A program made the position numbers and the translations under genes. A stretch of DNA of 35,088 nucleotides from the IMG/VR virus record IMGVR_UViG_3300010362_000057, positions 1 to 35,088 of that record, one strand, 5' to 3'. The notes under the pieces were generated by a model. That model did no database searches. It saw only the letters and a list, made by a program, of their open reading frames with translations, and had not been told where the DNA came from. The DNA comes from a virus. Its lineage: Duplodnaviria; Caudoviricetes. Below are positions 25,133-32,639 of this stretch, in pieces. How positions within the stretch are numbered: position 1 is the first letter of the stretch; every line of letters starts with the position of its first letter.

Positions 25133-25162
25133 ACTATTTGCCGTTCTGGCGAATATTGCAAG
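25133..25162 (-). promoter_or_regulatory. Leftward promoter with operator TTTGCC-GTTCT-GGCGAA (25137-25153)
   Basis: Minus strand TTGCAA-N17-AATAGT, with the operator between the -35 and -10 elements. Confidence 0.55.
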
Positions 25163-25223: not shown

Positions 25224-25300
25224 AATGCCAATGGTTGTCATTTTTCTGTGGATAACTCGGCTTTGCCCTCTTGACAGAATACCAATGGTTGTTACATAAG
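25224..25300 (+). promoter_or_regulatory. Rightward promoter of the small-ORF operon with two AATR-N-CAATGGTTG operators and a DnaA box
   Basis: TTGACA 25271-25276 with TACATA/CATAAG downstream; operators at 25224-25242 and 25278-25296; TGTGGATAA 25247-25255 is a perfect DnaA box. Confidence 0.65.
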
Positions 25301-25335
25301 CGGCACGGCACTTTTTGCCTGAAAGGGAAAATCCA

Positions 25336-25524
25336 ATGTCGCGCTTTACTGCTGATGAGGCTTTCGAGGCCGCGGATTGCGGCGAACCGATTGAGTTTGA
25401 ACCGGCCGCGGCGGTGCGCTGCGTCCAGTCTCACGGCGTTACCTGGGGCGAGTGGGAGTCCGATTGCGAGGACAAGACTCGCCTCTATCACGCCGACGCG
25501 ATTCTCGCGTGGCTCGGCTACTAA
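25336..25524 (+). CDS. Hypothetical early protein (62 aa, acidic)
   Basis: AAGGGA RBS; MSRFTADE...ILAWLGY. Confidence 0.7.
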   Translation: MSRFTADEAFEAADCGEPIEFEPAAAVRCVQSHGVTWGEWESDCEDKTRLYHADAILAWLGY

Positions 25525-25547
25525 CCCTAAGAACGGAGTCCTAACCT

Positions 25548-25799
25548 ATGATCCTTTTTTTCCTCGATGCGGCCGGCGGCTTCACTTGCGGCGATACGGT
25601 CGCCGGCGTCGCTGAGTACGCTTATCCCTCGTCGATCTATGCGACGCTTGCCAAGCGGGAACCGGCCATCGCCGCGCGCGCGATGATTGCTAAGGCGATG
25701 GCGCGCGCGTCGCTGCCGGAGTCGCTTCGGCCGTCGGTCGCCGCGCGCGACTCGGCGTGGTTGGCGATGCTCGCTCGTGAGGGCGTGGCCGCGGACTAG
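25548..25799 (+). CDS. Hypothetical early protein (83 aa)
   Basis: GGAG RBS; its stop abuts hammerhead 1. Confidence 0.7.
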   Translation: MILFFLDAAGGFTCGDTVAGVAEYAYPSSIYATLAKREPAIAARAMIAKAMARASLPESLRPSVAARDSAWLAMLAREGVAAD

Positions 25800-25870
25800 G
25801 CCGAAAGGCGCCTCGGGCGCCTCCCGCGTCGATGCCGGCTATGGCGTGGCTGATGATGGCTCGCCGGCGA
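25799..25870 (+). ncRNA. Type II hammerhead ribozyme 1 with pseudoknot
   Basis: GGCC-GAAA-GGCGCC(UCG)GGCGCC-UC|CCGCGUC(GAUGCCGGCUAU)GGCGUGG-CUGAUGA-U-GGCU-C-GCCGGC. Full core, three stems, predicted cut after C25823. Confidence 0.9.
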
Positions 25871-25900
25871 AACCAACAAACCAAGCAAAGGACTCCAATC

Positions 25901-26047
25901 ATGTCGCGTAAGGATTTCATCGTAATTGCTGCGGCGCTCAAGGCGGCCTCGGCGTCTCTGTCGATCTGCGAGACTATGGCTAACCATCTGGCGACAACGA
26001 ATCGCGCCTTTGATCGGGCGCGGTTCCTGTCGGCCTGCGGTCACTGA
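25901..26047 (+). CDS. Hypothetical protein (48 aa)
   Basis: MSRKDFIVIAAAL...N.AFDR.RFL.ACG, a pattern I recognise from small phage proteins; AAAGGA RBS. Confidence 0.75.
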   Translation: MSRKDFIVIAAALKAASASLSICETMANHLATTNRAFDRARFLSACGH

Positions 26048-26063
26048 GGGGGGGGCGCGGTCG

Positions 26064-26321
26064 ATGTCTACTGAATTCAAGCTCATTCGGGCGAAGTTCG
26101 CCGGCAAGTGCGCTTGCTGCGGCCGGCGCGTTTACCGCGGCGAGTCCGTGGTCTGGAACATGGTGGCGCGCGCGGTCTCGCATGTCGCGTGTCACGGTGC
26201 GAAGTTTGGCAACGTGTCGGCGACGGTCGCCGGCGTCGATCACGGCGCTAACGACTATGCCGGCGACGGCCTCGACTCCCGCTATGAGGATGATTGCGCG
26301 CGGGCCTGCGGGCTGCTGTAG
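26064..26321 (+). CDS. Zn-finger-like hypothetical protein (85 aa)
   Basis: AKFAGKCACCG..V..G......H..C motif; GAGGGG RBS; start trimmed to MSTEFK. Confidence 0.7.
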   Translation: MSTEFKLIRAKFAGKCACCGRRVYRGESVVWNMVARAVSHVACHGAKFGNVSATVAGVDHGANDYAGDGLDSRYEDDCARACGLL

Positions 26322-26324
26322 TTC

Positions 26325-26407
26325 GCCGAAAGGCAACGGGCGCGCGGCGCTCGTTGCCTCCTGCGTCGATGCCGGCTATGGCGTGGCTGATGATGGCTCG
26401 CCGGCGA
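26325..26407 (+). ncRNA. Type II hammerhead ribozyme 2 with pseudoknot
   Basis: GCC-GAAA-GGCAACGGGCGC(GCG)GCGCUCGUUGCC-UC|CUGCGUC(GAUGCCGGCUAU)GGCGUGG-CUGAUGA-U-GGC-UC-GCCGGC; predicted cut after C26360. Confidence 0.9.
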
Positions 26408-26426
26408 TCTCAACAAGGAGTCTCTT

Positions 26427-26972
26427 ATGCAAATCGTCTCAATCGGAAAGCGGGGCGGCAAAGCCTCGCTGTTTACGGGCGGGGCCGTTCTCGGCCTCGT
26501 CCGTGTTGCTGATGGCGTGAATGAGTTTCCCGGCGTGTGGCTTGAATTGCCGCGGGATGAGCGCCACGGCGATAAGAAATTCTGCGTCGTGTTCTCGCTC
26601 GATGAGGCGCGGCGCCTCTGCTCGGCGTTGCCTGGGTTCCTCGATGCCGCGGCGAAGTCCTCGGCGTTGACGTTCGGCGGGTCTCTCGCCGGCGCGCGCA
26701 AGGTCGAGGTCGGCGAGGTCGGGCATACTTCGGTGAGTGGCGGGCAACGGGCGGAAGTCCAGACTCGCGACGGGCTTGTTATCGGCCATATGCGGCGCGC
26801 CAGCATGCCGGGCGATATGGGCGATCTCTACAGCGTCGATCTCGTCGCCAGCGATGCCGGGCCTTCTAAAGCAATCGGCGGGGCGTCTAGTGCGGCGCGC
26901 GCGGTCGCAATGCTCGTCGAGGCTTGGAATGAGCGGCTAGACAAGTTTGCGGCGTCGGGGGTGCGGTCGTGA
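26427..26972 (+). CDS. Hypothetical protein (181 aa)
   Basis: AAGGAG RBS directly after hammerhead 2. Confidence 0.7.
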   Translation: MQIVSIGKRGGKASLFTGGAVLGLVRVADGVNEFPGVWLELPRDERHGDKKFCVVFSLDEARRLCSALPGFLDAAAKSSALTFGGSLAGARKVEVGEVGHTSVSGGQRAEVQTRDGLVIGHMRRASMPGDMGDLYSVDLVASDAGPSKAIGGASSAARAVAMLVEAWNERLDKFAASGVRS

Positions 26973-27235
26973 GTCGCAAGGTCACGGTTTGGCAACGGTG
27001 GGACTCGTCTGATCCTGCGGAGTCCGACTCGTTCTTCGCTACCAAGGGCGAGGCTCTAGCGGATATGCGGAGTCTGTACGGGGTCAAAGGCGCGGCGACG
27101 CGCACGGATGGCCGGCTGATGGAATGGGACTATGAGAACGCGGGCGGGTCTCAAACCGTCTACATTCGGCCGGTCGAGGTCACTATGACGGGCGCCGGCG
27201 TGGCGCATGCCCTCGGATGGGCGCCGAATCGGTGA
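26969..27235 (+). CDS. Hypothetical protein (88 aa)
   Basis: GTGA overlap with the upstream gene. Confidence 0.7.
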   Translation: MSRKVTVWQRWDSSDPAESDSFFATKGEALADMRSLYGVKGAATRTDGRLMEWDYENAGGSQTVYIRPVEVTMTGAGVAHALGWAPNR

Positions 27236-27284: not shown

Positions 27285-27315
27285 GCGGCGGCCCTCGGGC
27301 CGCCGCTCTTTTTTT
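27285..27315 (+). terminator. Intrinsic terminator of the small-ORF operon
   Basis: GCGGCGGCCC-TC-GGGCCGCCGC followed by TCTTTTTTT, at a convergent junction. Confidence 0.85.
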
Positions 27316-31332: not shown

Positions 31333-31453
31333 TTTGCCGGGGCGGCGGGCATTTTGCCCTTGCGGCAAAACCGATGCAAGTGGTTTGCGTTGCGTTCTGG
31401 TGTCGGGTTGGTGTCGGGATTGTTGCTCGGTGTTGCTTTGCCTCAATGGCAAA
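31333..31453. promoter_or_regulatory. Immunity region: operators TTTGCC-N5-GGCAAA and the cro promoter
   Basis: Perfect sites at 31353-31369 and 31437-31453, partial site at 31333-31349; leftward TTGCAT-N17-CAAAAT (31379-31351). Confidence 0.75.
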
Positions 31454-31510
31454 CGTTCAACAATTCGTGATAGTCTTTATTCCCTAACTGCGAATGAAAG
31501 GAGTCTTGGC

Positions 31511-31867
31511 GTGTCTAAAGGTAAGCCGCCTAACCGTTTGCGCGAATGGCGGCTCGCGCGTGGTCACTCGCTGGAATCGGTCGCGGCCGATCTGAGCATC
31601 GGCCTAACCTCGCTCCAGCGATACGAAACCGGCGACCGTCCGTTGACGGTCGAAACTCTCGAAAAGCTTGCAACCTACTATCTAGTAGGGCCGGGCGATC
31701 TCTTGAATCGCCCGGCCCACGCCGGCGCGATTAGCAAGGAACATGAGCTACTGGAAACGTTCCGGTTGCTCTCCCCTGTCGATCAACAAAGGCTTGTCGG
31801 CTTCGCTCGTGTCATGGGCGAAGCGTCAAAGGCTCCCGCCAATACAAGCCGACGGGGGCGAGTATAG
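31511..31867 (+). CDS. CI-like XRE repressor without an S24 peptidase domain
   Basis: NRLREWR..RG.SLE.VA..L.I...LQRYE.G.R.L HTH with an E.ELL..FR.LS...Q tail; AAGGAG RBS with GTG start. Confidence 0.85.
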   Translation: MSKGKPPNRLREWRLARGHSLESVAADLSIGLTSLQRYETGDRPLTVETLEKLATYYLVGPGDLLNRPAHAGAISKEHELLETFRLLSPVDQQRLVGFARVMGEASKAPANTSRRGRV

Positions 31868-31934
31868 CGCCAAAAAGTCGCGGGGGGCCATTGGTCTTAG
31901 GTCCAATGGTCCCCTAGCGATTCGAGGACTATGG

Positions 31935-31978
31935 TTTGCCGGACGGGCTTGACTCCCGTTTTGCCTAATCGGCAAAAT
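31935..31978 (+). promoter_or_regulatory. Rightward promoter with operators upstream of the xis-like gene
   Basis: TTGACT (31949)-N18-CAAAAT; perfect operator at 31960-31976, partial at 31935-31951. Confidence 0.7.
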
Positions 31979-32014
31979 AGGCGCTCTAAAAAAATCCCCT
32001 CGGGAGGGGCGCCC

Positions 32015-32314
32015 ATGCAAGATTTCCTGACAACCGCTGAGGTCGCGGCGATGTTCCGCCGCTCGGTCGATTGGTTCTATCGCAACCGGCGCAAGCTCGA
32101 ACGGCGCGGGTTCCCGCGGCCGGTGGTATGGAATAGTTATGATCCCGACGCCGTTTCCGCGTGGCGGCGGTCACAGATGCCGGCGCCGTTGCGGGCCGCC
32201 CTCGGCGACGGCGACGGCGCCGCGGTCGATGCCGCGGCCATGACTGAGGAATTGCGGGCGAACGCGGAACGGCTCGCCTCGGGCGTCCGGCGCCGGCGCT
32301 CGCGCGCGGCCTAG
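32015..32314 (+). CDS. AlpA/excisionase-like HTH protein
   Basis: FLTTAEVAAMF.RS..WFYR...GFPRP...Y...V.AW; GGAGG RBS. Confidence 0.8.
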   Translation: MQDFLTTAEVAAMFRRSVDWFYRNRRKLERRGFPRPVVWNSYDPDAVSAWRRSQMPAPLRAALGDGDGAAVDAAAMTEELRANAERLASGVRRRRSRAA

Positions 32315-32330
32315 CCGGGCCGGCAAGGCG

Positions 32331-32395
32331 ATTGCCTCGGGGGCAAAAAAAAGCGAATAACAATGGTTGCTATTTCCCGCCGGGTGCATTATCTA
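32331..32395 (+). promoter_or_regulatory. Promoter of the HTH-integrase operon, carrying both operator types
   Basis: ATTGCC-TCGGG-GGCAAA 32331-32347; AATAACAATGGTTGCTATT 32356-32374; TTGCTA-N17-TATCTA ends 7 nt before ATG 32403, consistent with a leaderless mRNA. Confidence 0.6.
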
Positions 32396-32402
32396 ATTGC
32401 GA

Positions 32403-32639
32403 ATGAACGCCAGTGATCTGTTAAGATGGCGCGAGTCCTGCGAATTGACGCAAGCTCAAGCCGCCGAAATGCTCGGGATAGCTAAGAGCATGTTTTGCAA
32501 TTACGAGTGGGGGAACCATGAAATCCCGCTCAAGATTCGGCTTGCCTGTGCGGCAATCGCGCTCGGCATAACAGACTACAGCGGGCCGCCGCCAACAAAC
32601 AAATCAAGCAAAGGAGTCTCTGATGATTCGCGTTCCTAA
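32403..32639 (+). CDS. Second XRE-family HTH regulator (78 aa)
   Basis: DLLRWR...LTQAQAAEMLG.......YE.G..EIP..I.LAC.A. Confidence 0.85.
   Translation: MNASDLLRWRESCELTQAQAAEMLGIAKSMFCNYEWGNHEIPLKIRLACAAIALGITDYSGPPPTNKSSKGVSDDSRS

What the first reader, a model, noticed from the sequence alone, without database searches (positions are those of the whole stretch)
25824..26360. Candidate 537-nt circular two-gene RNA released by the ribozyme pair
Double cleavage would free 25824-26360, with a 5'-OH and a 2',3'-cyclic phosphate, the ends joined by RtcB or by hammerhead reverse ligation. Its 5' end holds stem I, CUGAUGA and stem II' of ribozyme 1. Its 3' end holds stem II, GAAA, stem III and UC of ribozyme 2, so the ends can assemble a complete chimeric hammerhead. 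It contains exactly two intact ORFs with RBSs (48 aa and an 85-aa Zn-finger). This mirrors retrozyme and viroid-like architecture, here in a dsDNA phage. Circularisation is inference only.
Basis: inference. Interest (0 to 1): 0.8.

Follow-up and report, generated by a model that had tools for sequence, protein, structure and literature searches.

The report
Twin hammerheads bracketing two phage genes
Two hammerhead (self-cutting RNA) motifs bracket two small genes in a temperate soil phage and likely cut one long message into linear, hairpin-ended pieces, a layout described in prophages in 2011; none of my tests supports a functional circular RNA.

Summary
The anatomy is real: two type II pseudoknot hammerheads with predicted cuts after 25823 and 26360 enclose 537 nt with a 48-aa and an 85-aa gene (0 of 200 resampled windows gave such a hit). 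The circle is not supported. A chimeric hammerhead follows from any same-type pair. In other phages it is broken in 21 of 100 adjacent pairs, and neighbours are no more compatible than shuffled orders (54 of 72 against 54.0). Here only 3 bp would join the ends. 32 of 61 locus clusters hold one hammerhead. The unit folds no better than shuffles (z -0.4), has no antisense ribozyme, and this phage has no rtcB. Instead, 186 of 228 such ribozymes start just after a stop codon and 194 cut within 100 nt of the next start, as both do here: intergenic mRNA processing. Perreault 2011 described this layout, raised circles and did not detect them. This scan noted it before on other DNA (22 findings). No RNA data exist here, so circles are untested directly. 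One base (C25825 against T26362) would tell true ligation from template-switch artefacts.

The parts
25138..25152 (.). Operator-like inverted repeat TTGCC-N5-GGCAA (one mismatch), upstream of the cassette promoter
   Evidence: 6 of the 9 N5 matches lie at 31354-32542 around the repressor, cro-like and integrase genes
25271..25298 (+). Likely promoter of the cassette: TTGACA, 16 nt, TACATA
   Evidence: read from the sequence; not called by the consensus scan, which requires a final T
25315..25329 (.). Second operator-like repeat (one mismatch), just after the likely start site
25336..25524 (+). 62-aa cassette gene 1, phrog_25588 (E 1e-5), unknown function
25548..25799 (+). 83-aa cassette gene 2; its stop codon abuts ribozyme 1
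25799..25868 (+). Hammerhead 1, type II with extra U after A9 and loop I-tail pseudoknot; predicted cut after 25823
   Evidence: Rfam RF02276 16.7 bits, below cut-off
25824..26360 (+). Predicted 537-nt doubly cut RNA (5'-OH, 2',3'-cyclic phosphate)
   Evidence: ends inferred from hammerhead chemistry
25826..25870 (+). 45-nt tract identical to 26363-26407 (direct repeat, spacing 537)
   Evidence: separate unitig at twice the flanking depth
25901..26047 (+). 48-aa three-helix phage protein, phrog_19432 (E 1e-4), unknown function
26064..26321 (+). 85-aa phage protein with CxxC...HxxC N-terminal half and conserved NDYAGDGLDSRYED motif, unknown function
26325..26405 (+). Hammerhead 2, same subtype, 13-pair stem III; predicted cut after 26360
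26427..26972 (+). 181-aa cassette gene 5, start 66 nt after cut 2; no family found
26969..27235 (+). 88-aa cassette gene 6
27285..27314 (+). Intrinsic terminator-like hairpin (9 G-C pairs) with U run closing the cassette

Best explanation
The two hammerhead motifs sit between genes of a six-gene accessory cassette and likely cut its transcript into three linear messages, the middle one being the 537-nt two-gene piece. Shown: the ribozyme anatomy, the gene order, the promoter-like, operator-like and terminator-like sites. Inferred: the cassette is transcribed from a repressor-controlled promoter near 25271; each ribozyme cleaves during transcription; pieces of about 520, 537 and 950 nt result. 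Each downstream piece would begin with a 5'-OH, stem I and the pseudoknot 66-77 nt before its start codon, and each upstream piece would end in the stem III hairpin and a cyclic phosphate. From recalled knowledge of bacterial decay (5'-monophosphate-stimulated RNase E, hairpin-blocked 3' exonucleases), such ends would stabilise the pieces and uncouple their expression. Only 3 bp of stem II would hold the two ends together, so they would part, and any re-ligated chimera would be a complete ribozyme able to cut again. The near-identical ribozymes likely also serve as DNA recombination joints for gaining or losing the two-gene block.
For: Position: among 228 distinct type II hammerheads from other phage contigs, 186 begin within 15 nt of a stop codon (random sites 220 of 2280) and 194 cut within 100 nt of an SD-led start (random 530 of 2280); the window's two fit (3 and 6 nt; 78 and 67 nt by the same measure). 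Single ribozymes are common: 32 of 61 clusters of loci with 4 kb on both sides hold one hammerhead, 25 several, 1 mixed, 3 none. Chimeric stem II is <=1 bp in 21 of 100 adjacent type II pairs and longer than both parents in 1; 7 more pairs are of mixed type; order within 19 arrays shows no preference for compatible neighbours (54 of 72 against 54.0 +/- 2.0, P 0.60). End-to-end pairing is not favoured over the reverse control (40 against 47 of 100, P 0.42). Cargo is not tied to a pair: 3 of 27 loci with an 85-aa relative have hammerheads (one clade, units of 1.2-1.7 kb, 3-5 genes); L133 carries both gene families and no detected ribozyme; in 5 ribozyme-bearing loci with a 48-aa relative the gene never lies between two detected hammerheads (L397 is only 656 nt). 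Perreault 2011 showed cleavage of three such arrays in vitro and one in E. coli (passages); a tandem type II pair is cut in vivo in D. vulgaris (PMC8782182 section 7, part 1 of 2).
Against: No RNA evidence of any kind for this phage; cleavage and stabilisation are inferred. Nested-only folding does not return the hammerhead fold for either ribozyme, so they may be slow. 76 of 100 pairs do keep a chimeric stem II of >=3 bp (the searches were anchored on one stem II, which inflates this). In the window the tail of ribozyme 1 can pair with the head of ribozyme 2 at -12.5 kcal/mol, as strong as only 3 of 100 other pairs, though each ribozyme's own head-tail pairing is about equal (mean -12.1). 'Single' status is a lower bound on partners: Rfam found a pistol partner in 1 of 36 singles but missed all 18 anchor hammerheads of one set; a relaxed descriptor found a further candidate in 2 of 37. 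The loci are not phylogenetically independent.
Confidence: 0.7

Rival explanations
1. The excised 537-nt RNA is closed by host RtcB or by reverse hammerhead ligation into a stable circular two-gene mRNA that the phage uses.
For: The ends have the chemistry RtcB joins (PMC8782182 passages). The chimera can be drawn with a 3-bp stem II. A 7-bp helix between 25865-25871 and 26322-26328 could bring the ends near and mask the ribozyme; it appears in the local fold of the junction, and stems I and II are absent from the predicted fold of the whole circle.
Against: That helix has probability 0.01 in the whole unit and ribozyme 2 forms nearly the same helix with its own tail (-10.2 against -11.0). Circle z -0.4, 66% paired, within the 59-69% of 15 control windows. 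No antisense ribozyme, no endless ORF. rtcB absent here and in 29 of 30 ribozyme-array records, 4 of 5 near-complete ones. No selection for compatible ends. Perreault 2011 could not detect circular or spliced products (data not shown).
Confidence: 0.08
2. The pair matters mainly at the DNA level: the ribozymes are repeated intergenic joints through which recombination adds, drops or swaps small genes, possibly through DNA minicircles as for PeSL cassettes of T4-type phages. Compatible with the best explanation as a second role.
For: 45-nt identical tract 537 bp apart; a crossover would leave one complete hammerhead. In L127, L128 and L129 the ribozyme modules are 68-109-nt islands of 88-93% identity between unrelated cargo, ArdA-like in L127. 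PeSL precedent (PMC2839356, abstract only).
Against: It does not explain why catalytic cores and pseudoknots are kept (57 of 67 own pairings >=4 bp against 1282 of 4422 swapped), nor the singles. Only 12 of 100 adjacent pairs have stem I >=90% alike. Unit depth 7.16 against 7.85 and 7.9 in the flanks shows no excess copies (contigs of one run that may be the source).
Confidence: 0.12
3. The ribozymes are slow or conditional switches: the self-complementary GCCGGC strands and ribosomes ending at the adjacent stop codons compete with folding, so cleavage is partial and tunes downstream genes.
For: Alternative hairpins win in nested-only folds; stop codons lie 3 and 6 nt before GAAA; one-mismatch cores occur in L128, L129 and L150.
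Against: Those folds ignore the pseudoknot; both cores are intact; the extra-U subtype is widespread (77 of 80 viral loci examined pass the descriptor) and close forms score up to 67.6 bits on Rfam.
Confidence: 0.1

Closest known systems
Clustered hammerhead ribozymes flanking genes in prophages (Perreault et al. 2011, PMC3088659; passages and supplement legends read)
   Same: Type II hammerheads with a loop I-tail pseudoknot, in tandem around one gene or a short block of genes in a temperate phage; cargo not constant; circles raised as a possibility.
   Different: Different cargo families; extra U after A9; uncultured phage, activity not measured.
Rfam RF02276 Hammerhead_II; D. vulgaris HHR loc 2 and loc 3 (PMC8782182, section 7 part 1 read)
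   Same: Same topology and core; tandem pair near phage-like genes, cut in vivo there.
   Different: The window's ribozymes fall below the Rfam cut-off (16.7 bits and unlisted, against 37).
Plant retrozymes (Cervera et al. 2016, PMC4918200; passages read)
   Same: Two same-strand hammerheads in direct repeats delimiting an RNA of several hundred nt.
   Different: Retrozymes have type III ribozymes in 300-400-bp LTRs, a non-coding interior, PBS, PPT, 4-bp TSDs, many copies, about 70% pairing and demonstrated circles. Here: type II, a 50-nt repeat, a coding interior, one copy, no excess structure.
Viroids, satellite RNAs and coding viroid-like circles such as zeta viruses (PMC6765202 passages; zeta preprint seen as a search listing only)
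   Same: Hammerhead cleavage yields unit-length RNA with ligatable ends.
   Different: No antisense ribozyme, no compact fold, no endless ORF, and the unit is part of a DNA phage operon.
PeSL cassettes of T4-type phages (Arbiol et al. 2010, PMC2839356; abstract only)
   Same: Repeated intergenic regulatory modules among small non-essential genes that can serve as recombination joints.
   Different: PeSLs are promoter-terminator units, not ribozymes; DNA minicircles were shown there and are untested here.

Membership tests
Type II hammerhead ribozyme | Core CUGANGA, GAAA, UH with three stems, stem II open | tested here: met
   one extra U after A9, a form seen in many phage loci
Type II hammerhead ribozyme | Loop I to 3' tail pseudoknot | tested here: met
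   6 bp in both; covaries in the subtype, 57 of 67 against 29% swapped
Type II hammerhead ribozyme | Rfam RF02276 gathering score | tested here: not met
   16.7 bits against 37; second copy unlisted; the model also missed 18 of 18 clear anchors
Type II hammerhead ribozyme | Self-cleavage activity | not testable with these tools
   needs in vitro transcription
Clustered prophage hammerheads (Perreault 2011) | Several ribozymes flanking genes or short gene blocks in a temperate phage | tested here: met
   (integrase, repressor, capsid, portal, terminase)
Clustered prophage hammerheads (Perreault 2011) | Flanked genes not constant | tested here: met
Retrozyme | Ribozymes inside 300-400-bp LTRs | tested here: not met
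   repeat is 61 nt at 93%, 45 nt identical
Retrozyme | Non-coding interior | tested here: not met
   two conserved protein genes
Retrozyme | PBS, PPT and target-site duplications | not tested
   no dedicated search was run
Retrozyme | Highly self-complementary monomer (about 70% paired, more than chance) | tested here: not met
   66% paired, z -0.4 (circular), -1.0 (linear); controls 59-69%
Retrozyme | Circular RNA accumulates | not testable with these tools
   no RNA run available
Viroid-like circular RNA | Ribozymes in both polarities (symmetric rolling circle) | tested here: not met
   no CUGANGA on the antisense strand of the unit, even with one mismatch; asymmetric satellites lack it too
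Viroid-like circular RNA | RNA-to-RNA replication without a DNA stage | not testable with these tools
   the unit is single-copy phage DNA
Zinc finger (85-aa protein) | Four conserved metal ligands in a known fold | tested here: inconclusive
   C16, C18, C19 nearly invariant and H40 invariant; model pLDDT 63; best PDB match E 0.045, PARP, RING and C1 fingers

The most novel reading that the evidence does not exclude
Phage operons use hammerhead pairs plus a host ligase to make stable circular mRNAs; this 537-nt unit is one, with the 25865-25871 to 26322-26328 helix holding the ends and silencing the chimeric ribozyme. It would be a natural bacterial counterpart of engineered ribozyme-RtcB circularisation.
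Probability: 0.08. Interest if true: 0.8.

Novelty: new member of a known kind. Interest (0 to 1): 0.22.

Why it matters
What phage hammerheads are for is still open (PMC6765202 passage). This locus is a clean, compact example with promoter-like, operator-like and terminator-like sites and a single-base marker that separates true ligation from artefact. The comparative counts argue for stop-to-start intergenic processing rather than circles. If circles were shown, natural circular mRNAs in phages would be a real surprise.

Tried and rejected
Sequencing runs: no RNA holder listed; one DNA run that may be the source. Its contigs show no joint at the repeat, but a deletion or DNA circle through a 45-nt identical tract would not appear as a new contig (inference; Logan word size recalled). 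Close relatives of the phage: none by primase/helicase, terminase or the 181-aa gene in viral contigs or by DNA in phage records, so conservation of this exact pair is untested. A GCCGGC-anchored pattern gave 119 loci, all but one without a descriptor hit and that one implausible. In bacterial genomes 1 of 80 loci examined (of 93) was a hammerhead. The 48-aa alignment was too variable for a locus search; three annotated phage loci with relatives had no ribozyme. Fold searches gave no function for the 48-aa protein: no PDB Foldseek match, best VIA Z 4.8, only uncharacterised phage proteins; the Atlas look-up for it did not complete. The idea that the near-identical post-cut halves and different stem III mark RNA-mediated insertion was rejected: the asymmetry runs both ways (7 against 5 of 100 pairs, P 0.13). 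Host not determined: portal 44% to Pelagibacter HTVC010P-like phages, terminase 35% to BcepC6B, integrase 27% to an Acetobacter protein, so host rtcB is unknown. Literature: ten searches listed no paper showing circles from phage ribozyme pairs; the library lacks most subscription papers. Rows dropped: only the first 80 of 140 and 80 of 123 loci had flanks and were counted. Perreault's supplementary figures were seen as legends only.

Full report
Setting. The window is a whole 35,088-bp virus record, 98% complete by CheckV. Portal, capsid, tail, terminase, primase, repressor and integrase matches mark it as a temperate podovirus-like phage; best named relatives are distant. The finding lies in a rightward cassette of six small genes (25336-27235) between leftward replication and packaging genes. 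It starts at a promoter-like site read by eye (TTGACA-16-TACATA, 25271-25298; not called) and ends at a strong terminator-like hairpin. Operator-like TTGCC-N5-GGCAA repeats flank the promoter, and six more lie around the repressor and integrase genes; 13 matches with 5- or 6-nt spacers (one site counted twice) against a resampled mean of 3.5, maximum 8. So the cassette is likely repressed in the lysogen and expressed early in lytic growth (inference).

Observation. Both ribozymes are complete type II hammerheads with predicted cuts after 25823 and 26360; 0 of 200 resampled windows gave such a hit, and no third one appears with a relaxed core. Both carry an extra U after A9 and a 6-bp loop I-tail pseudoknot. 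This subtype is common: about 1,600 stored viral stretches match a pattern for it (estimate), 77 of 80 loci examined pass the descriptor, and the pseudoknot covaries (57 of 67 own pairings of 4 bp or more, 1282 of 4422 swapped). Rfam scores the window's copies below cut-off, but misses many clear cases. The two enclosed ORFs are real phage gene families of unknown function; the zinc-finger label is plausible but unproven. The assembly is sound: the repeat forms its own contig at twice the depth (16.4 against 7.2-7.9).

Is the chimeric hammerhead evidence for a circle? No. Any two same-strand type II ribozymes leave the 3' half of the first and the 5' half of the second on the excised piece. 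I collected 228 distinct type II hammerheads from 80 of 140 loci, 80 of 123 loci and five others. Of 100 adjacent type II pairs, the chimeric stem II is 1 bp or less in 21, 3 bp or more in 76, and longer than both parents in 1; among 41 pairs whose stem II differs, 21 are broken; 7 further pairs are of mixed type. Shuffling ribozyme order within 19 arrays gives the same compatibility as observed, 54 of 72 against 54.0. Pairing between a unit's two ends is no stronger than the reverse control (40 against 47, P 0.42). In the window the chimeric stem II is 3 bp (-2.6 kcal/mol as a duplex), and the pseudoknot lies wholly on the 5' piece, so little holds the ends together (inference). A ligated chimera would be a full ribozyme able to recut.

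Results that lean the other way. The window's end-to-end pairing is strong (-12.5; 3 of 100 pairs as strong), through a 7-bp helix 25865-25871 with 26322-26328 that would mask the ribozyme. But it comes largely from the self-complementary GCCGGC strand, ribozyme 2 forms nearly the same helix alone, and its probability in the whole unit is 0.01. The predicted circle fold lacks stems I and II, which a stable circle would need, yet the model has no pseudoknots or ribosomes and fails to fold the native ribozymes too. Most pairs remain compatible, partly by the way they were found.

Viroid or retrozyme features. The circle folds at z -0.4 with 66% pairing, like control windows. There is no antisense core and no endless ORF although 537 is a multiple of three. 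Retrozymes have 300-400-bp LTRs and a non-coding interior (PMC4918200 passages); this unit has neither. RtcB is absent from this record and present in 1 of 30 ribozyme-array records, 1 of 5 near-complete; a host enzyme is not excluded.

What the ribozymes track. 186 of 228 begin within 15 nt of a stop codon and 194 cut within 100 nt of an SD-led start, against about 10% and 23% of random sites. 32 of 61 locus clusters hold a single hammerhead; extra partners turned up in 1 of 36 by Rfam and 2 of 37 by a relaxed descriptor. Arrays reach ten copies with units of 224-3380 nt. The cargo is not tied to a pair: 3 of 27 loci with the 85-aa family have hammerheads (24 distinct genes; 21 loci with adequate flanks), L133 has both families and no detected ribozyme, and the 48-aa family is never bracketed in five ribozyme-bearing loci. 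In L127-L129 the ribozymes are conserved islands between swapped genes, which recalls PeSL-mediated shuffling (PMC2839356 abstract).

Mechanism. Most likely each ribozyme cleaves as it is made, giving about 520-, 537- and 950-nt linear messages (sizes, start site assumed). Each has a structured 5'-OH leader before its RBS or a stem III hairpin at its 3' end (-12.7 and -24.0 kcal/mol), which from recalled decay biology would set their stability independently. The function is inferred; reviews call it unresolved (PMC6765202 passage).

Prior knowledge. Perreault 2011 described this arrangement, showed cleavage in three arrays, proposed processing into gene-length mRNAs and was unable to detect circular or spliced products. 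A tandem type II pair is cut in vivo in D. vulgaris. The scan's own notes list 22 similar findings with the same verdict; they are AI notes and were used as leads only, after I had read the paper.

A caution on the proposed test. The ribozymes share 45 identical nt. Reverse-transcriptase template switching or DNA recombination there yields a junction that differs from a true ligation product by one base, C25825 against T26362. Junction reads must be read at that base.

Verdict. A genuine pair of hammerheads and a new member of a known kind. Linear processing 0.7; functional circle 0.08. Interest 0.22.

Noticed in passing
window 25138-25152, 25315-25329, 31354-32556: Recurrent TTGCC-N5-GGCAA operator-like palindrome linking the cassette promoter to the repressor, cro-like and integrase region.
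   Followed up: partly
window 25228-25237, 25282-25291, 31888-31910, 32360-32369: A second motif, CCAATGGTTG or its core, occurs twice at the cassette promoter (once in the spacer) and again after the repressor gene and before the integrase; weak statistics (2 and 5 of 100 shuffles).
   Followed up: partly
window 25874-25900 and 32593-32622: The A/C-rich leader and RBS before the 48-aa gene is nearly repeated before the integrase gene.
   Followed up: no
L127:3011-3697, L128:1783-3435, L129:1581-2848: Three related phages keep the same ribozymes with swapped cargo; L127 carries an ArdA-like gene (named from recalled motif, no family scan) directly after a hammerhead, as in Perreault 2011.
   Followed up: partly
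L202, L183, L168, L297: Arrays of 7-10 type II hammerheads within 5-8 kb; Rfam gathering misses many of this kind.
   Followed up: partly
L128 cut 4651, L129 cut 2812, L150 (reverse) cut 413, L211 4508, L306 4492: One-mismatch cores (CCGAUGA, CCGACGA or GAGA) with intact stems; possibly decayed or variant ribozymes.
   Followed up: no
L298:4886-4953: Pistol ribozyme about 850 nt downstream of a type II hammerhead: a mixed-class pair.
   Followed up: no
L507 (G026, record of L222): The one ribozyme-array phage record of 30 that encodes RtcB; the best place to look for ligated products.
   Followed up: no
window 26064-26321: The C-terminal NDYAGDGLDSRYED motif is nearly invariant in 23 proteins of an unnamed phage family.
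   Followed up: partly
L120:102-129: A CRISPR-DR4 repeat match in a viral contig near a terminase relative.
   Followed up: no
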